IMG/VR virus record: IMGVR_UViG_638275541_000001
Length of the DNA: 64,000 bases
Strand: one strand, 5' to 3'
Source of the DNA: a virus
Lineage: Duplodnaviria; Heunggongvirae; Uroviricota; Caudoviricetes
The notes beneath the pieces are model-generated. The model worked only from the letters and a program-made list of their open reading frames with translations, was not told the DNA's origin and searched no databases. Positions 8,470 through 34,212 of this stretch are shown piece after piece. Position 1 is the stretch's first letter; every line of letters begins with the position of its first letter. Both the position numbers and the translations under genes were made by a program.

Positions 8470-10071
8470 ATGGACTTAAATGCTGTTAAGCAGAAGCGAG
8501 TGGAAGATGTTAGGAAAGTCCTAGCTGGAGAGTTGGGGCTTTCTGATGAAGTAAAAGAAATTATTAAATCATTCGGTAAAGACCCCTCTAAATTCCTTCC
8601 AACTCAAATTCTGACTTTATTAAGATACACACCAGACCAAGTTCGCCTTATCTTTAAATTGATGACTGATAAGAACTATGTAGCCCCTCAGCCGGGTTCT
8701 CAAGAGGTCTTTTTAAACACTAATGCTGACTTGGTACTCTATGGTGGTGCTGCTGGTGCTGGTAAGACTGCTGCATTGTTAATGGACTCCTTAAGATTTA
8801 TTGAAGACCCTAACTATAATGCTGTGTATTTCCGTCGAAATACAACACAGCTACAAGGTGGTTTATGGCCTGCTGCAAAGAAACTATTTGGTAAGTTTGG
8901 TGGGATTCCTCACGAGCAGAAAATGACTATCACATTCCCTTCTGGGGCAACTATCAAGTTTACCTATCTAGAACTTGAAAAGCACGCTGAAGGTCATCAG
9001 GGTATTGAATACTCAGCTATTTACTTTGACGAAGGTACACACTTCTCTGCTTCACAGATTTCATACCTACAAACCCGTCTACGTTCTGGTGCTGAAGGGG
9101 ATTCATACATGAAGATTTCCATGAACCCAGACAGAGACCATTTTATTTATGATTGGGTAGAGCCATTCTTAGATGAAGAAGGTTATCCAGACCCTGAAAA
9201 GTGTGGTCGTATTCGTTGGTATGTAATGAATGATGGTGTGATGGTTTCTGATTGGGAGAGAGACAAGATTCTTGAAATGTTCCCTCTTGAGATTCCTCAA
9301 ACATACACCTTCATCTCTGGTACGATTGATGATAACCCAATTCTTGACTTCTTAGAACCTAAGTACCGTGGTAAGTTGGAAAACAACACCCCTGTAAACG
9401 TTGCAAGACTTCGTTTCGGTAACTGGAAGGCTCGTGCAGAAGGTTCAAACTATTGGCAAAGACAATGGTGTGAAATTGTTGATTCACTCCCAGAGGATGT
9501 ATTTGATGTTAGAGCATGGGACTTAGCAGCAACTTTACCATCTGAAATTAACCCTAATCCAGACTGGACAGCAGGTGTTAAGATGGGTAAATCTAAAAAA
9601 GACGGTTGCTATTATATCATTGATGTAGTAAGATTTAGAGATAGACCCTCTGGAGTCGAAACACAAATTAATTTGACTGCTGAAAGTGACGGTAAGCGAA
9701 CTGGTATTTTTATCCCTCAAGACCCAGGCGCTGCTGGTAAATCCTACGCAACATCCCTCATCAGGAAACTTGCCGAGAAAGGCTATCGTGCAAGAGCTAA
9801 ACCAACAAATAAAGATAAAGTTACCCGATTCGCGGGGTTTTCTGCTGCTTCTGAAGCTGGACTTGTAAAAGTTTTGAGAGGTAGTTGGAACGAAGCTTAT
9901 TTCCAAGAGCTTGAAGGCTTTTGTGGTGATGGCAAAACTAAAGATGACCAAGTGGATGCTACCAGTGATGCTTTCAACAGTCTTAACGAAGTTAAATTAT
10001 TCAAGCCACCATCAATGGGTGCTCACACAGACTTAGTGAGAGGAAACCCATATGAGGGGCTTAGACGTTGA
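8470..10071 (+). CDS. terL: terminase large subunit
   Basis: Walker A LYGGAAGAGKT; RBS GGAGG 6 nt before ATG; size and position ahead of portal. Confidence 0.8.
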   Translation: MDLNAVKQKRVEDVRKVLAGELGLSDEVKEIIKSFGKDPSKFLPTQILTLLRYTPDQVRLIFKLMTDKNYVAPQPGSQEVFLNTNADLVLYGGAAGAGKTAALLMDSLRFIEDPNYNAVYFRRNTTQLQGGLWPAAKKLFGKFGGIPHEQKMTITFPSGATIKFTYLELEKHAEGHQGIEYSAIYFDEGTHFSASQISYLQTRLRSGAEGDSYMKISMNPDRDHFIYDWVEPFLDEEGYPDPEKCGRIRWYVMNDGVMVSDWERDKILEMFPLEIPQTYTFISGTIDDNPILDFLEPKYRGKLENNTPVNVARLRFGNWKARAEGSNYWQRQWCEIVDSLPEDVFDVRAWDLAATLPSEINPNPDWTAGVKMGKSKKDGCYYIIDVVRFRDRPSGVETQINLTAESDGKRTGIFIPQDPGAAGKSYATSLIRKLAEKGYRARAKPTNKDKVTRFAGFSAASEAGLVKVLRGSWNEAYFQELEGFCGDGKTKDDQVDATSDAFNSLNEVKLFKPPSMGAHTDLVRGNPYEGLRR

Positions 10072-19726: not shown

Positions 19727-27742
<8,016 letters not shown>

Positions 27743-27744
27743 TA

Positions 27745-28911
27745 ATGGCAGTAGGTGAAATTCAAATTAGTGCCTTGCCTCAAGCAGCCTTACCAATTGA
27801 CCTTAGTGATATCTTCCATCTTAAGCAGGGTATTGAGGATAAGAGATGTACTCTTGAGCAATTACTTGCTCCACACTCAAGCCTAAGAAATAACCCTCAC
27901 GGTGTTACTAAAACACAAATTGGTTTAGATAATGTTATCAATGCTCTTCAGTTAGTTGCTGCAAATAACTTATCAGATGTTGCTAATGTCACTGAGGCAA
28001 GAGCAAATCTACAGATTATGTCTTCAGAAGAGGTTAATAGCCTTGTTCAACAGCATATTAATGATAAAAGTAACCCACACAATACAACTAAGGCACAGGT
28101 TGGTTTGAGCAATGTCCAGAACTGGGTGACATCTAACCTTTATAATGAGGATGCAGATAAGTATGCTACAGCAAGAGCAGTAAATAACTTGTACAAGGCT
28201 GTTCAGGCTTCTTATCCAGTAGGTACTATCCATCTCTCTATGAATCCTGCAAACCCTTCTACATATTTAATTTGTGGGGGTACTTGGGAGTTAGTTTCAA
28301 GAGGAAGAGCACTTGTAGGTTATGATAGTGCTTCTAGGCCAGTTGGTAGTAACTTTGGCTCAAGTAGTATTAGCTTATCTAGTAACAACCTACCATCACA
28401 TAGCCATTCAATCTATCTAACTGGTGGTGGACATACTCATGGTGCTGCTATTACTATCGATGGCTTTGATTACGGCAATAAGAGCACAAACAGTTTCGAT
28501 TATGGAACAAAGACCACTAATAGCACTGGTGCTCACACCCACTCAGTGAGTGGTTCAACAAATACCACAGGTAATCACACACATACTGTAGGTGGTCGTT
28601 ACGGAGGTGACTCTATCGGTGGTAAACATCGTGTTCAGGTCTCAGGGACTGAACAGGTTTCCAGTGTAGCTGGTGACCACTCACACACTATTAGTGGTTC
28701 AACAAATACCACAGGTAATCACCAACACACTGTTGCAATTGGTGCTCACACACACACTGTTGCAATTGGTGCTCATACCCATAAAGGCACAGTAACTTTG
28801 CAGTCATCTGAACATACTCACTCAGGTACTACAGGTACTACAGGTTCTGGTCAAGCATTTAGCGTTGAACAACCATCCTTTGTGGTTTATGTATGGCAAA
28901 GAACCGCTTAA
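27745..28911 (+). CDS. tail fibre protein with C-terminal His-rich (HxH) module
   Basis: 388 aa; C-terminus GAHTHSVSGSTNTTGNHTHTVGG...GDHSHTISG...GAHTHTVAIGAHTHKG, resembling metal-binding HxH motifs of T-even fibre tips. Confidence 0.65.
   Translation: MAVGEIQISALPQAALPIDLSDIFHLKQGIEDKRCTLEQLLAPHSSLRNNPHGVTKTQIGLDNVINALQLVAANNLSDVANVTEARANLQIMSSEEVNSLVQQHINDKSNPHNTTKAQVGLSNVQNWVTSNLYNEDADKYATARAVNNLYKAVQASYPVGTIHLSMNPANPSTYLICGGTWELVSRGRALVGYDSASRPVGSNFGSSSISLSSNNLPSHSHSIYLTGGGHTHGAAITIDGFDYGNKSTNSFDYGTKTTNSTGAHTHSVSGSTNTTGNHTHTVGGRYGGDSIGGKHRVQVSGTEQVSSVAGDHSHTISGSTNTTGNHQHTVAIGAHTHTVAIGAHTHKGTVTLQSSEHTHSGTTGTTGSGQAFSVEQPSFVVYVWQRTA
28495..28690 (+). repeat. ~196-bp repeat shared with 30955-31150 (fibre C-terminal module)
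   Basis: near-identical DNA runs in both fibre genes, e.g. GGTGCTCACACCCACTCAGTGAGTGGTTC and GACTCTATCGGTGGTAAACATCGTGTTCA..GTCTCAGGGACTGAACAGGTTTCCAGTGTAGCTGGTGACCACTCACACACT. Confidence 0.7.
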
Positions 28912-28920
28912 AAATTCTTT

Positions 28921-28948
28921 TACAGGGGGCTGTACAGCCCTCTTTCTA
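28921..28948 (+). terminator. palindromic hairpin between fibre genes (weak terminator)
   Basis: GGGCTGTACAGCCC perfect palindrome followed by TCTTTCT. Confidence 0.3.
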
Positions 28949-28961
28949 GAGGACAAAAATA

Positions 28962-31310
28962 ATGGCAGATTACAAGTTGAGTGAATTAAACTCAATCGAT
29001 ACAATCCGTTCAGATGACCTTCTTCATGTCAGGGTTAAAAAGAGACCTGAAATGCTTGGTGATGAAGACCGTCGAATGACCTATCAAGATTTCTTAGCGT
29101 CTTTTAAGCTTGAAAGATTTGTTCAGATTGCTGGTAGCACTATGACTGGTGACTTAGGGATTGTTAAGTTACTTTATGGTGGTAAGGCAGTCTTTGACCC
29201 TACAGGCTCTTCTGAGATTACTATGGGGGATGTTTTAAAGACTTTTAAAATTAATGCAAATGGTCTTAAACTAACTATTGCAGATGCTTCAAGGTCTGCA
29301 ACTGTTTATCATACTCTTAATAAGCCAAGTCCTAATGAGCTTGGGATGAGAACTAATGAAGAGAATGATGCAAGATATGCAAGGCTTGCTGTCACAAACA
29401 CATTCTCTGGGACTCAGAACATTCAAGGTGATGTTAACTTACTTCGCCTTAGAAACCAAAATGCAAATAATGCACAATATATTGAAGGTGTAGACCTAGA
29501 TGGCTCGGCTAGATGGTTGGTTGGTATTAGTAAAAATGGTTCTGATGCAGTGCAGTTGTACAATAATAAATATGACTCAGCTTTGACTATTGCAAGTAAT
29601 ATCTCTGTTAATAAGTCTTTAGCAATCACTGGTCAAGTCCAACCTTCGGATTTCTCTAACTTAGATGCTAGATACTTTACTCAGACAGTTGCTAATCAGA
29701 GGTTTGCACAGTTAGCTGCTAATAATAATTTCACGGGCACTAACACGTTTAGTAGAAATCTAACCATCATTAGTGACAGTGCTGCTTTAAGGTTGAAAAA
29801 TGCAACATCTAGCTCACTATTCGTTCAGGGTGTTGACTCTCAGAATACTAACAGGTGGTATGTAGGGAACGGGGATAACACAGCCTCTGTGCTGCTACAC
29901 AACTATGTACACGGTTCAAATATCAGACTTGATAATGGTTATATCTCAGTCAACCAGAACTTCAGAATTACTGGTCAAGTCCAACCTTCGGATTTCTCTA
30001 ACATTGACTCTAGGTATATTCCGGCAGCAACATTAAGTACAATTGCAAGAACTAATGCACAAAATACTTTTAATGGTGCGCAAACAGTTGTTAGTGATGG
30101 CGAAGGTTTAGTTATTAAAAACTCTACTCAGAATAGGCCATTGTATATTCGTGGTAAGGACGCTGCCAATGTATCAAGATGGTGGTTAGGTGTTGGTGAC
30201 CCAAATTCTACTGATGTAGCCTTAAACAACAGCTTCTCTGGCACTCAGTTAATTTTAGGTAACTCATCTGCAAGTATCAATAAGACATTAACCCTAGCAG
30301 GGCAGATTCAACCTTCAGATTTCTCTAACTTAGATGCTAGATATTACACGCAATCTACCGCAAACTCTAGGTATATGCTTGCTTATTCTTCTGGCACTGG
30401 TACAGAGGTAGGTGATAGTGATGGCATTGCTTGGAATGCTAAAACTGGTCTGTATAATGTTACAGGTTATAGTGGAGGCTCAACACAGCTTGTTTTCCAA
30501 ATGTATCAGGGTGCAAGCTCTACTCCCTCTGCTCAATTAAAATTCAACTACAGGAATGGGGGTTTTTGGTATAGGTCATCAAGGGATGGTTTTGGTTTTG
30601 AAGAGGACTTCACACAAATTTATACAGAGAAGTATAAACCAACTCCTTCAGCTATTGGTGCATACACTAAAGCAGAGACTGACCAGAAGATTGCAGAAGC
30701 GATTAGTGACTCTACAGACCTGAATAAAATCTATCCAGTAGGGATTGTGACATGGTTTAACAGTAATGTTAACCCTAATACAGCACTCCCTGGGTTAACT
30801 TGGACGTATCTGAACAATGGTGTTGGTAGAACTATTAGAATTGCAGCAGCAAACGGTTCAGATGTTGCTACAACTGGTGGTTCAGATTCTGTAACGTTAT
30901 CTGTTGGTAACTTACCTTCACACACTCATAGCTTCTCTGCGACTACCTCTAGCTTTGACTACGGTACTAAAACCACTAATACTACTGGTGCTCACACCCA
31001 CTCAGTGAGTGGTTCTACTAACAACACTGGTGCTCATACACATACATTTGGTGGTCGTTATGGTGGTGACTCTATCGGTGGTAAACATCGTGTTCATGTC
31101 TCAGGGACTGAACAGGTTTCCAGTGTAGCTGGTGACCACTCACACACTGTATATGGTACTGCTGCCTCTAACGGAAACCATGCTCACACAGTTGGTATTG
31201 GTGCTCACAGTCATACAGTTAGTGGTAACACTGGTGGTACAGGTTCTGGTTCAGCATTTAGTGTAACTAACCAGTTCTATAAGCTGATGGCTTGGGTAAG
31301 AACTGCTTAA
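28962..31310 (+). CDS. long tail fibre protein with three internal tandem repeats and C-terminal HxH module
   Basis: 782 aa; three ~110-aa repeats each ending xTGQ(V/I)QPSDFSN(L/I)D(A/S)RY; C-terminus paralogous to upstream fibre gene. Confidence 0.7.
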   Translation: MADYKLSELNSIDTIRSDDLLHVRVKKRPEMLGDEDRRMTYQDFLASFKLERFVQIAGSTMTGDLGIVKLLYGGKAVFDPTGSSEITMGDVLKTFKINANGLKLTIADASRSATVYHTLNKPSPNELGMRTNEENDARYARLAVTNTFSGTQNIQGDVNLLRLRNQNANNAQYIEGVDLDGSARWLVGISKNGSDAVQLYNNKYDSALTIASNISVNKSLAITGQVQPSDFSNLDARYFTQTVANQRFAQLAANNNFTGTNTFSRNLTIISDSAALRLKNATSSSLFVQGVDSQNTNRWYVGNGDNTASVLLHNYVHGSNIRLDNGYISVNQNFRITGQVQPSDFSNIDSRYIPAATLSTIARTNAQNTFNGAQTVVSDGEGLVIKNSTQNRPLYIRGKDAANVSRWWLGVGDPNSTDVALNNSFSGTQLILGNSSASINKTLTLAGQIQPSDFSNLDARYYTQSTANSRYMLAYSSGTGTEVGDSDGIAWNAKTGLYNVTGYSGGSTQLVFQMYQGASSTPSAQLKFNYRNGGFWYRSSRDGFGFEEDFTQIYTEKYKPTPSAIGAYTKAETDQKIAEAISDSTDLNKIYPVGIVTWFNSNVNPNTALPGLTWTYLNNGVGRTIRIAAANGSDVATTGGSDSVTLSVGNLPSHTHSFSATTSSFDYGTKTTNTTGAHTHSVSGSTNNTGAHTHTFGGRYGGDSIGGKHRVHVSGTEQVSSVAGDHSHTVYGTAASNGNHAHTVGIGAHSHTVSGNTGGTGSGSAFSVTNQFYKLMAWVRTA
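29395..30350 (+). repeat. three tandem ~330-bp in-frame repeats inside the long fibre gene
   Basis: repeated ATCACTGGTCAAGTCCAACCTTCGGATTTCTCTAAC-type blocks at ~29630, ~29965 and ~30300. Confidence 0.6.
30955..31150 (+). repeat. second copy of the fibre C-terminal repeat
   Basis: see 28495-28690. Confidence 0.7.
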
Positions 31311-31389
31311 TCCCTTATTGACTGATTGTTAAGATGGTGTTAATATTCTTTATGGGTATTCTCACCATCTTGGCTGATGAGGTGATTAA

Positions 31390-31584
31390 ATGCCTACAAT
31401 CCTAGCAATTCTCCTAAAAAATCTAGGTAGCTTCTTCTGGAAACTCATTTTATCCCTTCTAAGTGAATACATGATTGAGAAAGTGTTCTTTAAGCTTGCA
31501 AGATACCTTGCGGGTAAGACAGACACACCTATTGATGATGAGTTCGTAGATAACTTAGAAAAAGCTTTTAAGGGGGAGAAATAA
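31390..31584 (+). CDS. small hydrophobic protein (possible lysis or membrane protein)
   Basis: 64 aa; N-terminus ILAILLKNLGSFFWKLILSLL. Confidence 0.35.
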   Translation: MPTILAILLKNLGSFFWKLILSLLSEYMIEKVFFKLARYLAGKTDTPIDDEFVDNLEKAFKGEK

Positions 31585-31950
31585 ATGAAGTGGCTAGAGG
31601 AAGCTTTTAAAAATAATATTGGTGCAATTGTTGTTGGTATTTTTAGTGTTATTGGGATGTATACCACGATGCAAGTTTCAAGTGGTAAGCAAGAAGTGTC
31701 TGTCACAACAAAGTTACAGCAGCTAGATAATTATTCCAAAAGTAACTATTCAGCTATTCGTGATTTACAGTCTGACATGAGACTGATTCAGCTAGGGATG
31801 GAGAACCAGAAAGTTCAGTTAGAGAATGTTAAGGGTGAAAACGCAAAACTTACCAAAACCCTTGATAAATTCTCTGACAGTGTAAATAATCTGGCTCAAT
31901 CAGTATCAGCCCTCCAAGCTATTACTGAGAAGAACACAAAAGAACACTGA
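31585..31950 (+). CDS. membrane-anchored coiled-coil protein (spanin-like or other)
   Basis: 121 aa; N-terminal TM IGAIVVGIFSVIGMY then heptad-like region. Confidence 0.35.
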   Translation: MKWLEEAFKNNIGAIVVGIFSVIGMYTTMQVSSGKQEVSVTTKLQQLDNYSKSNYSAIRDLQSDMRLIQLGMENQKVQLENVKGENAKLTKTLDKFSDSVNNLAQSVSALQAITEKNTKEH

Positions 31951-31963
31951 AAATAAAATTTTA

Positions 31964-31990
31964 AGGCTCCTTTTTACGGGAGCCTTTTTG
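31964..31990. terminator. bidirectional rho-independent terminator between convergent blocks
   Basis: AGGCTCC-TTTTTACG-GGAGCCT with T-run after and A-run before; sits between + strand lysis-like genes and - strand thyA. Confidence 0.6.
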
Positions 31991-31992
31991 TT

Positions 31993-32892
31993 TTACTTAC
32001 CTACTGACAAAGGTGCTTCAATCTTCCCTGCGTGTTTGTAGTTGTTAATACCACCAATAAAATCACTCGCAGTAAGGTGTTTTAGGTCACTTAGCGTGTT
32101 AAGTGGTAGACCAATCTCAAAAGTTGGTGCATGGAACTCTTCATTATTCATCAATTCATAAACCTGCTTCATATGGTTCTGATAAATCTGAGTATCCCCA
32201 AAGACACCTATCAAGTATCGTGGAGTGTACCCAGTCATCTTGCAAAGTACTTCCAGAATAAAACCATAAGATGCAATGTTAAACGGAAGTCCTAAAAAGG
32301 TGTCTACAGAACGCTGATACCATTGTAAGTCAACTTCACCTTCGTTAGTGATATAAATCTGAAACATAACATGACAAGGTGCTAAAGCCATTGAGTTAGC
32401 TGCAATATCTGCTGCATTCCAAGCATTGACAAGCATGTAACGGTCTGTGATATCACCTTTCATCTTCGTTACTAAGGTTTCTAACTGGTCTACAACACAA
32501 CCATTATGACCTTCAAAGTTTCTCCACTGAACTCCGTAGATTCTTCCACCTGCATCTTCTAACCAGTCTTGTTCAGAAGAATAATTAGAGCTTAACCAGC
32601 GTTTAAAATCATCTGACCAGATAGTCCAGCGTTCCCCATCATTTTCACCCCAAGTACGGTAACGGAGTTCACTAAGTTTATTCTCACCATTCAGGAACCA
32701 TAAAGCTTCCCCAATAACTTGCCGTGTAAACACCTGTTTAGATGTTAAGAGTGGAAAACCAGTACGCATATCAAAACGAAATTGTGGTGGAGCAAATGCA
32801 GAGATAACATCTCCAGTTCGTGTAGTACGTAGTTCACCAACGGATAAAACATGGTTCAGGATATTTTTGTAACTCAAATCAGCTTGTGACAT
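31993..32892 (-). CDS. thyA: thymidylate synthase
   Basis: 299 aa; ThyA active-site region ALAPCHVMFQ and motifs DTFLGLPFNIASY, GDTQIY. Confidence 0.85.
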   Translation of the reverse strand: MSQADLSYKNILNHVLSVGELRTTRTGDVISAFAPPQFRFDMRTGFPLLTSKQVFTRQVIGEALWFLNGENKLSELRYRTWGENDGERWTIWSDDFKRWLSSNYSSEQDWLEDAGGRIYGVQWRNFEGHNGCVVDQLETLVTKMKGDITDRYMLVNAWNAADIAANSMALAPCHVMFQIYITNEGEVDLQWYQRSVDTFLGLPFNIASYGFILEVLCKMTGYTPRYLIGVFGDTQIYQNHMKQVYELMNNEEFHAPTFEIGLPLNTLSDLKHLTASDFIGGINNYKHAGKIEAPLSVGK

Positions 32893-32893
32893 A

Positions 32894-33439
32894 TCAAAAG
32901 TGTCCTTTTACTTGTGGAACATAAATTTCAAAGGTTGCTTTACCATCTACTGATGGTTTTGACTGAATCTTAGCGAAAATTTGACGGTCATGCAACTTAT
33001 CAAAGAAATTCTCAAAAGGTAGATGCACAGTTGCCTCTTCAGTCACTTCATGAAAAACTGTATGGAACACTACATCAGCATACGGTAAAGCACTGACAAG
33101 AATACCTACACCACCAATTACGAAGACGTCTTCTTCAATATTACTATCAAGATACTTTAAAAATGCTCCAAAAGAATCTTGATGAGCCTTAGCAAACATA
33201 ACATCATCTTTGGTGAAGTCCATACCATAATAAGGCACAGAATTTGTTAAGATGAGGTTTGTACGTTCTGGTAAAGGTTTACTACCCAGAGTCTTAAAAG
33301 TTTCATTACCCATGACTACTAAGTTGTCTTTAGTGAGTCTCTTAAACTCTTGCATATCCTGTTTATGTTGAGGCCACGGCATACCAGTTGGAGTACCAAA
33401 CTCCCCATTTTCACCACTTGCAAAGATTAATTTAATCAT
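32894..33439 (-). CDS. folA: dihydrofolate reductase
   Basis: 181 aa; N-terminal IFASGENGEFG...MPW and VVMGNETFKTL DHFR signatures; adjacent to thyA. Confidence 0.75.
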   Translation of the reverse strand: MIKLIFASGENGEFGTPTGMPWPQHKQDMQEFKRLTKDNLVVMGNETFKTLGSKPLPERTNLILTNSVPYYGMDFTKDDVMFAKAHQDSFGAFLKYLDSNIEEDVFVIGGVGILVSALPYADVVFHTVFHEVTEEATVHLPFENFFDKLHDRQIFAKIQSKPSVDGKATFEIYVPQVKGHF

Positions 33440-33696
33440 TTTGTAAATCCTTTCTTAATGAACCAGTTGATAACATTCTTCACAGCTTTATTGCTATGGT
33501 AGATTAAGTGCGGTGTGGGTTGGTATGAACCATAAGCCCAGAATGATAGCTGCTCACCACAACCAACACATGTCGTACTCTCTTCAGCTATATGACCATT
33601 AACAATCATATGAACTTCACCTTGCAAGTCTGTACACCCACAATGTGGACATCGGATAGGTGTTCCATCAGACTCATAGCAGTGTTCAATTTTCAT
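33436..33696 (-). CDS. small zinc-ribbon protein
   Basis: 86 aa; CPHCGC...CVGCG four-Cys arrangement. Confidence 0.45.
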   Translation of the reverse strand: MKIEHCYESDGTPIRCPHCGCTDLQGEVHMIVNGHIAEESTTCVGCGEQLSFWAYGSYQPTPHLIYHSNKAVKNVINWFIKKGFTK

Positions 33697-34212
33697 TTAC
33701 TTAACCTCAAAAACTGGCTCAAGAACCAATATAAAGTCTACACAGTCATCTTCTTCATCCAGAATACCATCAAAGTTCTTAGGAACGAAGTCGAAGAGGC
33801 TCATAACAAAACAGTCAGAAGTGACCCTGATAGTCCCTCCCATGTTCTCTACAGTTAACACTGTACGACTTTCTTTTACCTCCCTCAGAAGATTACTCAC
33901 AAAGTCATCTAAGAAATACTTCATTAGTGACTTGAAACCTTTAGGGTAATCTGTACCAGAGTATGTTTCAATCTGTGGTACAAGCTTAACATTTATACTA
34001 GTCTTTGTTAAGAACGTTTTAGAGAACATACTATCAGGTAACTTACAAACAGTCTTTCCAGTACCTTCATGTTCAATCTCAACAAAACCAGCTTCGTCGC
34101 CACATGTGACTATTTTAAAAGATGCTTCATTCTCATGCTGCGAAGCCATAAACTTTTTAAGCATCACTTTAAGGAAATCTGCATGAGCATCTTGTAAGTA
34201 GATATCAATCAT
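33697..34212 (-). CDS. hypothetical protein
   Basis: 171-aa ORF in co-directional array. Confidence 0.4.
   Translation of the reverse strand: MIDIYLQDAHADFLKVMLKKFMASQHENEASFKIVTCGDEAGFVEIEHEGTGKTVCKLPDSMFSKTFLTKTSINVKLVPQIETYSGTDYPKGFKSLMKYFLDDFVSNLLREVKESRTVLTVENMGGTIRVTSDCFVMSLFDFVPKNFDGILDEEDDCVDFILVLEPVFEVK

What the first reader, a model, noticed from the sequence alone, without database searches (positions are those of the whole stretch)
28495..31150. Two tail-fibre genes share a His-rich HxH C-terminal module
A ~196-bp segment at 28495-28690 recurs at 30955-31150 with high identity, so both fibre proteins end in nearly the same G-x-H-x-H-rich module. From established knowledge, HxH repeats coordinate metal ions in T-even fibre tips, and duplicated tip modules are substrates for recombination that reshuffles host range. 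Two fibres with a common tip but different shafts is unusual.
Basis: partly seen in the sequence, partly recalled or inferred. Interest (0 to 1): 0.45.

Follow-up and report, generated by a model that had tools for sequence, protein, structure and literature searches.

The report
Felix O1 fibres share one tip
The short and long tail fibres of Salmonella phage Felix O1 carry nearly the same T4-gp37-like receptor-binding tip, kept alike by repeated gene conversion; the repeat and the fibre architecture were already published, so this is a known feature with some new evolutionary detail.

Summary
The repeat is real. Window 28492-28698 recurs in frame at 30951-31157 (207 nt, 87% identity).

The window is Salmonella phage Felix O1 (99.7% to FO1a). 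The genes are its short fibre (27745-28911, 388 aa) and long fibre (28962-31310, 782 aa).

Both C-termini are homologous to the solved T4 gp37 receptor-binding tip (2XGF), which has a collar, an HxH needle and a head.

The shared 69 codons are not the end of the polypeptide. They encode two descending His boxes, the head at the hairpin turn, and the first ascending His box. That is the distal end of the folded fibre.

Across 29 Felixounavirus loci both tips are hypervariable. Only Salmonella-infecting members carry the same head on both fibres.

In 16 such genomes, short-fibre versus long-fibre synonymous divergence runs from 0.04 to 1.2. Exact tracts of 51-189 nt differ in their left ends and share a right end. 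This indicates recurrent gene conversion on top of purifying selection.

The same head cassette occurs in gp37 of T4-like Salmonella phages and, more distantly, in P2-like ones.

There is no sign of a cleaved chaperone domain.

Whichard 2010 reported the repeats. Papers from 2015 and 2025 described the gp37-like tips. The finding is already known. The clade restriction and the gene conversion are modest additions.

The parts
27745..28911 (+). ORF A, the short tail fibre (388 aa). It is Felix O1 gene 76, FO1a gp75, and the orthologue of Bas63 STF gp26.
   Evidence: ORF list. PHROG 2097, E 1e-137. FO1a annotation. Bas63 architecture.
28204..28428 (+). ORF A collar domain (about aa 154-228), ending in the first His box (H219-S-H221).
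   Evidence: Pfam Gp10_C over aa 154-270, E 4e-17. Aligns to the T4 gp10 C-terminal domain and the gp37 collar.
28492..28698 (+). Shared repeat, copy 1 (codons 250-318 of ORF A): SFDYGTKTTN, two descending His boxes (H264/H266, H278/H280), the head, and the first ascending His box (H312/H314).
   Evidence: the repeat finder family D1. Translation. HxH positions.
28585..28665 (+). ORF A head-domain equivalent (aa 281-307, TVGGRYGGDSIGGKHRVQVSGTEQVSS). This is the hairpin turn and the presumed receptor contact.
   Evidence: It aligns with T4 gp37 Y932-N959 in 2XGF. The T4 numbering was checked against published head mutants G938, T939, V941, G943, A955. It is the hypervariable column block across the genus.
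28666..28911 (+). ORF A ascending needle arm (His boxes at 312, 326, 335, 344, 357) and the C-terminal strand that returns toward the collar. It is specific to the short fibre.
   Evidence: HxH positions. Alignment to 2XGF up to aa 359. Conserved among all short-fibre orthologues.
28962..31310 (+). ORF B, the long tail fibre (782 aa). It is Felix O1 gene 77, FO1a gp76, and the orthologue of Bas63 LTF gp27.
   Evidence: ORF list. PHROG 4277, full-length match with E reported as 0. Virion protein of 82.4 kDa.
29409..30383 (+). ORF B shaft: three gp37_trimer (PF20744) repeats, visible in the DNA as three 79-nt direct repeats at 29596, 29938 and 30265. The start coordinate is approximate.
   Evidence: Pfam PF20744, 3 stretches, E 5e-91. 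Repeat family D2.
30387..30716 (+). ORF B gp37_C domain (PF12604, aa 476-585), similar to the phage Mu fibre protein S.
   Evidence: Pfam, E 1e-33. 8JU3, E 2e-22.
30723..30950 (+). ORF B collar domain and first His box (H654-T-H656).
   Evidence: Pfam Gp10_C over aa 588-694 at 24.4 bits, below the 27-bit curated cut-off. BLASTP alignment to the ORF A collar.
30951..31157 (+). Shared repeat, copy 2 (codons 664-732 of ORF B): descending His boxes H678/H680 and H692/H694, the head (aa 695-721, nt 31044-31124), and ascending His box H726/H728.
   Evidence: the repeat finder family D1. Translation. HxH positions. Aligns to 2XGF.
31158..31310 (+). ORF B ascending arm (His boxes at 740 and 749) and C-terminal strand. 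It is specific to the long fibre and nearly invariant across the genus.
   Evidence: Alignment of 29 loci.

Best explanation
The two genes encode the short (ORF A) and long (ORF B) tail fibres of Felix O1. Each ends in a T4-gp37-type receptor-binding tip.

In that fold, a collar domain is followed by a polypeptide that runs down a trimeric needle as G-x-H-x-H 'His boxes'. In T4 each box, contributed by all three chains, binds one Fe2+. The chain then turns in a small head domain that touches the receptor, runs back up the needle through more His boxes, and finishes near the collar.

The 207-nt repeat encodes the lower descending arm, the head, and the first ascending His box. That is the physically distal end of both fibres, although it sits in the middle of the C-terminal sequence.

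In the Salmonella-infecting clade both fibres therefore present almost the same head, and presumably bind the same LPS-core receptor. Two forces keep the copies alike. One is purifying selection on the protein. The other is recurrent gene conversion between the two direct repeats. The tracts stop at a fixed right boundary just after the first ascending His box, where the fibre-specific sequence begins.

The head with its flanking His boxes behaves as an exchangeable cassette. It also moves between Felixounavirus, T4-like and P2-like phages.

Shown here: the repeat, homology to 2XGF, the motif layout, clade restriction, conversion tracts, and presence of the cassette in other phage families.

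Inferred: trimer and hairpin topology in Felix O1 itself, Fe binding, and that both heads bind the same receptor.
For: - Identity of the window: 99.7% to FO1a, annotation.
- Homology to the T4 gp37 tip 2XGF: ORF A aa 146-359, E 2e-25; ORF B aa 648-761, E 5e-13. My T4 residue mapping agrees with the published head mutants and the iron-binding H929/H931.
- HxH motifs: 9 in ORF A (4 descending, 5 ascending) and 6 in ORF B (3 + 3).
- Bas63 cryo-EM shows that the STF and LTF of this genus both have a collar, HxH needle and head, with the chain doubling back at the head.
- In 29 Felixounavirus loci the collar and C-terminal tails are conserved within each fibre. The head block is hypervariable in both fibres.
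- Within-genome ORF A versus ORF B identity in the module is 77-88% in the Felix O1 clade only, and 37-56% elsewhere. The flanks are about 50% and 60% identical in all genomes.
- The Felix O1-type module is confined to Salmonella phages: 69 records by blastn, 84 by tblastn.
- Gene conversion. Difference maps show zero-difference tracts that include lineage-specific synonymous changes. Longest exact ORF A/ORF B matches are 189 nt (BPS17L1), 141 (Seyj1-1), 113 (UAB_Phi87 and UAB_69) and 51 (Felix O1). In these four lineages, the ones I checked, the tracts end at ORF A nt about 945-947. The run-length permutation test is significant in 13 of 16 genomes, and dS runs from 0.04 to 1.2 while dN stays at or below 0.15. 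Permuting the genome pairing gives P = 0.0027.
- Cassette exchange. gp37 of the Tequatrovirus Lv5cm and of PTE-Eco15 carry the head at 95% aa and 83-84% nt identity to long-fibre alleles, within T4-like flanks. The P2-like phage SEN5 has it at about 60% aa. Conversely, E. coli Felixounavirus long fibres carry a T4-type head at 84-88% aa identity.
Against: - No structure or metal analysis exists for Felix O1 itself. The single-sequence AlphaFold2 model was useless (pLDDT 37).
- Which fibre binds what has not been measured. The Felix O1 receptor is known only as LPS.
- In several genomes (NBSal004, AN17P8, IMGVR_024527) no conversion tract is detectable and dS is high. Conversion is therefore sporadic, and selection alone keeps those copies alike.
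- The permutation tests treat related genomes as independent.
- ORF A was detected only weakly in the virion proteome (9% coverage).
Confidence: 0.85

Rival explanations
1. The shared C-terminal modules are intramolecular chaperone domains that are cleaved off after trimerisation and play no part in receptor binding.
For: Many phage fibres and spikes do end in such domains (established knowledge). ORF A was poorly covered in the virion proteome (9% coverage).
Against: Pfam finds only Phage_fiber and Gp10_C in the last 139 aa of ORF A and 119 aa of ORF B at E<=1, and no Peptidase_S74. The region is homologous to the mature, uncleaved T4 gp37 tip 2XGF. The long fibre from virions runs at 82.4 kDa against 84.0 kDa predicted. 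The shared piece is not C-terminal.
Confidence: 0.02
2. The two copies are alike only because both are under selection to bind the same receptor, after a single ancient duplication. There is no ongoing recombination between them.
For: In many genomes dS between the copies is 0.7-1.2 while dN is about 0.07. That shows strong purifying selection without recent exchange.
Against: Selection on protein cannot remove synonymous differences. BPS17L1, Seyj1-1, UAB_Phi87/UAB_69 and Felix O1 have exact nucleotide tracts of 189, 141, 113 and 51 nt. These carry lineage-specific synonymous variants and have different left ends. Run-length tests give P<0.001 for these genomes. The short-fibre gene of BPS17W1 carries a long-fibre-type descending arm.
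Confidence: 0.08
3. The apparent ORF A/ORF B identity tracts and the single fused fibre genes are artefacts of short-read assembly across a repeat, not biology.
For: Several deposited records start or end inside this repeat: SUT_S720, SUT_S820, SUT_S920 and pSJ21. The fused gene of vB_Si_35FD contains an odd 32-aa internal duplication. Meda was a SPAdes assembly of MiSeq reads.
Against: The repeat is present at 87% identity in the window and in independent Felix O1 sequences, including the 2010 genome. At 87% identity the two copies are easy to tell apart. Tracts with different boundaries recur in genomes from different laboratories. UAB_Phi87 and UAB_69 agree with each other. This rival can explain Meda and 35FD, but not the window's repeat.
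Confidence: 0.05

Closest known systems
T4 gp37 receptor-binding tip (PDB 2XGF; Bartual et al. 2010)
   Same: Collar, HxH needle and head are alignable residue by residue (E 2e-25 for ORF A, 5e-13 for ORF B). The His boxes lie on both arms. A glycine-rich apex is present (T4 NGTGVGG, Felix O1 GGDSIGG). The C-terminal strand follows the last His box.
   Different: Felix O1 has this tip on two separate baseplate fibres rather than on one four-protein long fibre. There are 9 and 6 His boxes against 7 in T4. The head sequence is unrelated in detail (about 50% identity over the arms plus head). No gp38-type chaperone gene lies next to the fibre genes in the FO1a annotation.
Bas63 (Felixounavirus) STF gp26 and LTF gp27, cryo-EM 2025 (PMC12609058); also VpaE1 gp74/gp75 (PMC4690856)
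   Same: Orthologous gene pair with the same synteny and the same lengths. Both fibres end in gp37-like tips with HxH motifs, and the tips are the most variable parts.
   Different: In the E. coli-infecting members the two fibres carry different heads (module nucleotide identity 37-50%). Felix O1 and its Salmonella relatives carry the same head on both. Neither paper's retrieved passages mention this.
His-box-mediated rearrangement of T-even adhesins (Tetart et al. 1996, J Mol Biol 258:726, listed as a reference; content recalled from memory)
   Same: Conserved G-x-H-x-H coding motifs bracket the specificity segment. The boundaries of the exchanged or converted segments lie at or next to them.
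   Different: Here the partners are two paralogous fibre genes in one genome, giving concerted evolution. The T-even cases are tandem duplications or exchanges between phages.
gp37 of Tequatrovirus Salmonella phage Lv5cm and E. coli phage PTE-Eco15; tail fibre of P2-like Salmonella phage SEN5
   Same: They carry the Felix O1-type head cassette (TNNTGAHTHTVGGRYGGDSIGGKQRVQVSGT.QVSS.AG.H.H). Identity to Felixounavirus long-fibre alleles is 95% aa and 83-84% nt for the T4-like phages, and about 60% aa for SEN5.
   Different: Everything outside the cassette is T4-like or P2-like. Those phages also encode separate fibre-assembly proteins (gp38-type or P2 G-type) downstream.

Membership tests
T4 gp37-type receptor-binding tip (collar-needle-head) | Significant sequence homology to the solved tip across collar, needle and head | tested here: met
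   phmmer against PDB: ORF A aa 146-359 to 2XGF residues 18-227, E 2e-25. ORF B aa 648-761 to 2XGF residues 101-218, E 5e-13.
T4 gp37-type receptor-binding tip (collar-needle-head) | Several HxH motifs on both sides of a short non-HxH head segment | tested here: met
   ORF A: 219, 230, 264, 278 | head 281-307 | 312, 326, 335, 344, 357. ORF B: 654, 678, 692 | head 695-721 | 726, 740, 749. Pfam Phage_fiber repeat hits.
T4 gp37-type receptor-binding tip (collar-needle-head) | Chain reverses at the head, giving a six-stranded trimeric needle with the C-terminus back at the collar | tested here: inconclusive
   The single-sequence AlphaFold2 model had pLDDT 37 and is uninformative. The topology is inferred from the 2XGF alignment and from the cryo-EM of the Bas63 orthologues.
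T4 gp37-type receptor-binding tip (collar-needle-head) | Octahedral Fe2+ coordination by the HxH histidines of three chains | not testable with these tools
   Known for T4: seven Fe sites, including H929/H931. The aligned Felix O1 residues are H278/H280 in ORF A and H692/H694 in ORF B.
Felixounavirus STF/LTF pair | Adjacent genes downstream of the baseplate wedge genes, of about 390 and 780-870 aa, with conserved N-termini and variable tips | tested here: met
   Same order and sizes in loci L002-L030 and L080-L095. Baseplate_J lies upstream. PHROG 2097 and 4277.
Intramolecular chaperone (Peptidase_S74) C-terminal domain | An S74 domain at the C-terminus with autoproteolytic release | tested here: not met
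   No S74 hit at E<=1 and none in the full-length scan. The virion long fibre is 82.4 kDa against 84.0 kDa predicted.
T4 gp12-type short tail fibre | Homology to gp12 | tested here: not met
   ORF A hits only gp37 and gp10 chains in the PDB at E<=0.01, and not gp12.
Concerted evolution by gene conversion between paralogous segments | Tracts with no synonymous differences between paralogues of one genome, flanked by diverged sequence, with tract limits that differ among lineages | tested here: met
   Difference maps. Exact tracts of 51-189 nt with different left ends. dS from 0.04 to 1.2 and run tests significant at P<0.05 in 13 of 16 genomes. Pairing permutation P = 0.0027.

The most novel reading that the evidence does not exclude
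In Felix O1-type Salmonella phages the short and long fibres use one and the same LPS-core-binding head. This would be a portable cassette bracketed by His boxes, kept in step on both fibres by gene conversion, and traded with T4-like and P2-like Salmonella phages.

The short fibre's copy would be the indispensable one. Three observations point that way: some natural members have replaced the long-fibre head (BPS17W1 group), some have a frameshifted long-fibre gene (Si3, and the EC6-sized contig L009), and two records have lost it altogether by recombination between the two repeats (Meda, vB_Si_35FD).

This would give a molecular explanation for Felix O1's near-universal Salmonella host range. 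It would also identify a minimal transplantable Salmonella-specificity element.
Probability: 0.3. Interest if true: 0.55.

Novelty: already known. Interest (0 to 1): 0.33.

Why it matters
Felix O1 is the classic diagnostic and biocontrol phage for Salmonella, yet how it recognises its host has remained elusive.

Placing the shared repeat on the head domain of both fibres gives a concrete candidate for the Salmonella-specific receptor-binding element. That candidate is about 27 aa, flanked by His boxes.

The repeat also makes the locus unstable. Conversion and possibly deletion occur there, and assemblies break there.

The same cassette circulates among three myovirus lineages. This is useful for host-range engineering and for annotating such genomes. 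It does not change any concept, because the fold, the two-fibre layout and the repeat were already described.

Tried and rejected
1. AlphaFold2 on ORF A aa 140-388 without an alignment gave pLDDT 37 and pTM 0.16. It was unusable, so no fold search was run.

2. The Bartual 2010 paper and the Hyman and van Raaij 2018 review are not held in the library. Domain limits were reconstructed from the 2XGF alignment instead. They were checked against residue numbers in PMC5221442 and PMC6957217.

3. A search for 'His boxes' found nothing. The link to Tetart 1996 rests on memory.

4. The intramolecular-chaperone reading was rejected.

5. I considered whether Meda and vB_Si_35FD prove repeat-mediated deletion of the long-fibre gene. 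This was not accepted as proven. Both are short-read assemblies. The 35FD gene has an implausible internal duplication. Other records break inside the repeat.

6. The Bas63 gene-essentiality preprint (PMC11482910) gave no usable statement on the fibre genes.

7. A regex-based extraction failed once and was redone.
Full report
**Observation.** The repeat finder on 26000-34000 returns one outstanding direct repeat: 28492-28698 and 30951-31157, 207 nt, 87% identical, 2459 nt apart. All other two-copy families there are 41 nt or shorter. The copies lie in two adjacent plus-strand ORFs, 27745-28911 (388 aa, ORF A) and 28962-31310 (782 aa, ORF B). Both copies begin on a codon boundary, at codon 250 and codon 664. 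The translations and BLASTP show near-identity over these 69 residues. The whole alignable C-terminal region is only 48% identical, with two 20-21-aa indels. Its wording that the proteins 'end' in the module is not accurate: 70 and 50 further residues follow.

**What the locus is.** The 5-kb region is 99.7% identical to Salmonella phage FO1a, a Felix O1 isolate, and 261 phage records match it. In FO1a the genes are gp75 and gp76, both annotated 'tail fiber protein'. They follow baseplate genes and precede two small ORFs and thymidylate synthase.
- Pfam finds Gp10_C and Phage_fiber in ORF A.
- In ORF B it finds three gp37_trimer repeats, gp37_C, a weak Gp10_C and Phage_fiber.
- PHROGs assigns ORF A to tail-fibre family 2097 and ORF B to 4277.
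- The Felix O1 genome paper already lists 51-bp and 32-bp repeats shared by genes 76 and 77. It notes the resulting amino-acid similarity and the similarity of both C-termini to T4 gp37. It reports the gene-77 protein as an 82.4-kDa virion band against 84.0 kDa predicted (PMC3185647).

**Structure by homology.** phmmer against all PDB chains aligns ORF A aa 146-359 with the T4 gp37 receptor-binding tip 2XGF (E 2e-25). It aligns ORF B aa 648-761 with the same chain (E 5e-13). ORF B aa 472-578 matches the Mu fibre protein S.

2XGF chain position i corresponds to gp37 residue 784+i. With this numbering the published T4 head-domain mutants G938, T939, V941, G943, A955, Y949 and Y953, and the iron ligands H929/H931, fall on the right letters. 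The T4 head (Y932-N959) aligns with ORF A aa 281-307 (TVGGRYGGDSIGGKHRVQVSGTEQVSS) and with ORF B aa 695-721.

ORF A has nine HxH motifs, four before and five after the head. ORF B has six, three and three.

The cryo-EM study of the Felixounavirus Bas63 shows a 430-Å short fibre and a 630-Å long fibre. Each has a gp37-like collar, HxH needle and head, with the chain doubling back at the head (PMC12609058). VpaE1 gp74 and gp75 were likewise reported as gp37-like (PMC4690856).

The shared repeat therefore encodes the last two descending His boxes, the head, and the first ascending His box. This is the distal end of the folded fibre. My single-sequence AlphaFold2 run was uninformative (pLDDT 37). 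The topology in Felix O1 itself is therefore inferred, not shown.

**Not a cleaved chaperone.** The C-terminal 139 aa of ORF A and 119 aa of ORF B hit only Phage_fiber and Gp10_C at E<=1. The region is homologous to a mature tip. The virion long fibre is essentially full-length.

**Comparison across the genus.** Twenty-nine Felixounavirus loci from IMG/VR all have the ORF A/ORF B pair. In an alignment of the C-terminal regions, the collar and the last 60 or so residues are conserved within each fibre type. The block between the His boxes is hypervariable in both.
- Within-genome ORF A versus ORF B nucleotide identity in the module is 77-88% in Felix O1 and its four closest relatives.
- It is 37-56% in every other genome.
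- Collar identity (about 50%) and tail identity (about 60%) are the same everywhere.
- The Felix O1-type module is found by blastn in 69 records at 80% coverage or more. Those listed are Salmonella Felixounaviruses, including a few records named otherwise.
- By tblastn the 37-aa tip is found in 84 records, 78 of them named Salmonella phages.
- The roughly 120 E. coli members lack it.
- Some Salmonella members (BPS17W1, BPS15S6, D1-2) keep it on the short fibre but carry a different, shorter head on the long fibre.

**Gene conversion.** I added 14 GenBank genomes and compared a gap-free 192-nt segment in 16 genomes that have the Felix O1-type tip in both genes.
- Difference maps show long zero-difference tracts of differing extent: nearly the whole segment in BPS17L1, 138 nt in Seyj1-1, 108 nt in UAB_Phi87 and UAB_69, and the last 47 nt in Felix O1. 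Other genomes differ throughout.
- The tracts include synonymous variants peculiar to each lineage.
- Longest exact matches are 189, 141, 113 and 51 nt. Each ends at ORF A nt about 945-947, just after the first ascending His box.
- A run-length permutation test within the segment is significant in 13 of 16 genomes, with P<=0.0007 in eight.
- Nei-Gojobori dS between the two copies ranges from 0.04 to about 1.2, while dN stays between 0 and 0.15.
- Within-genome pairs are more alike than shuffled pairs (P = 0.0027).

I read this as sporadic, recurrent conversion superimposed on strong purifying selection for the same protein tip on both fibres. The tests ignore phylogenetic non-independence and should be taken as indicative.

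**Exchange with other phages.** The tip peptide also hits gp37 of the Tequatrovirus Salmonella phage Lv5cm, of E. coli phage PTE-Eco15 and of GRNsp7. It hits the fibres of the P2-like Salmonella phages SEN5, SEN1 and RE2010 as well.
- In Lv5cm and PTE-Eco15 the similarity is 95% aa and 83-84% nt to long-fibre alleles. It is confined to TNNTGAHTHT...G.H.H, meaning one His box on either side of the head. The flanks are T4-like and a gp38-type gene follows.
- SEN5 is about 60% identical.
- Conversely, two E. coli Felixounavirus long fibres (L007, L012) carry a T4-type arm and head at 84-88% identity to gp37 899-999.

The head plus flanking His boxes thus behaves as an exchangeable cassette. This fits what I recall of Tetart et al. 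1996 on His-box-bounded rearrangements in T4 gp37. That paper appears only as a reference, and I could not read it.

**Possible deletions.** The Meda record has a single 368-aa fibre gene. It is made of the short-fibre N-terminus, collar, descending arm and head, joined to the long-fibre ascending arm and tail. No long-fibre gene is present. vB_Si_35FD has a similar 400-aa fusion with a 32-aa internal duplication. The Meda tip matches that of BPS17L1, whose two copies share 189 identical nt.

These could be real deletions by recombination between the repeats. They could equally be assembly collapses. Both are short-read assemblies, and several other records begin or end inside the repeat. I leave this open.

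**Verdict.** The finding is real, and most of its interpretation is right. It describes a published feature of a well-known phage.
- mapping the repeat onto the head domain;
- the restriction to the Salmonella clade;
- the evidence for recurrent conversion with a fixed right boundary;
- the presence of the same cassette in T4-like and P2-like Salmonella phages.

Noticed in passing
L090 2854-3960 (Salmonella phage Meda, MH586731) and L096 2055-3257 (vB_Si_35FD, MZ327261): Each record has a single fused fibre gene: the short-fibre N-terminus through the head, joined to the long-fibre ascending arm and C-terminus. The roughly 2.4-kb long-fibre gene is absent. The 35FD version has a 32-aa internal duplication. 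This is either deletion by recombination between the two repeats or a repeat-induced assembly collapse.
   Followed up: partly
Records SUT_S720 (L087, ends inside the long-fibre copy of the repeat), SUT_S820 and SUT_S920 (start at the repeat), pSJ21 (L088, record origin inside the short-fibre gene): Several deposited Felixounavirus genomes begin or end within this repeat. This suggests it breaks short-read assemblies.
   Followed up: no
L002 about 8560-8630 (84,419-bp contig, the size of phage Si3) and L009 about 8830-8850 (86,231-bp contig, the size of phage EC6): The long-fibre gene is interrupted by a frameshift, at ...TLTLA|GQIQPSDF in L002 and at YRNGG|FWYRS in L009. No short-fibre gene was seen interrupted in about 45 genomes. 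These may be sequencing errors, or a hint that the long fibre is dispensable.
   Followed up: partly
Identity to T4 gp37 899-999 is 84-88%.
   Followed up: partly
window 28526-28589 and 28670-28733: Within the short-fibre gene, the descending arm (GAHTHSVSGSTNTTGNHTHTV) and the ascending arm (GDHSHTISGSTNTTGNHQHTV) are themselves 83%-identical 64-nt direct repeats that bracket the head-coding segment. The long-fibre ascending arm has diverged.
   Followed up: no
window 29596-29674, 29938-30016, 30265-30343: Three 79-nt direct repeats (70-78% identity, period about 330-340 nt) mark the three gp37_trimer (PF20744) shaft repeats of the long fibre. Each ends in ..GQ[VI]QPSDFSN[LI]D[AS]RY.
   Followed up: no
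GU169904.1, 'Staphylococcus phage SA1' (147 kb), 82258-87247: A record labelled as a Staphylococcus phage contains a Felix O1-like fibre locus, covering 90% of the query at 91% identity. It is probably a chimeric or mislabelled record.
   Followed up: no
L021, L091, L093 (BPS17W1, BPS15S6, D1-2), C-terminus of the long-fibre gene: These Salmonella Felixounaviruses keep the Felix O1-type head on the short fibre. On the long fibre they have a shorter, unrelated head (HTHQFGGYINSFYGDSSHTSFQPGGGAW). The short-fibre gene of BPS17W1 nevertheless carries a long-fibre-type descending arm.
   Followed up: partly
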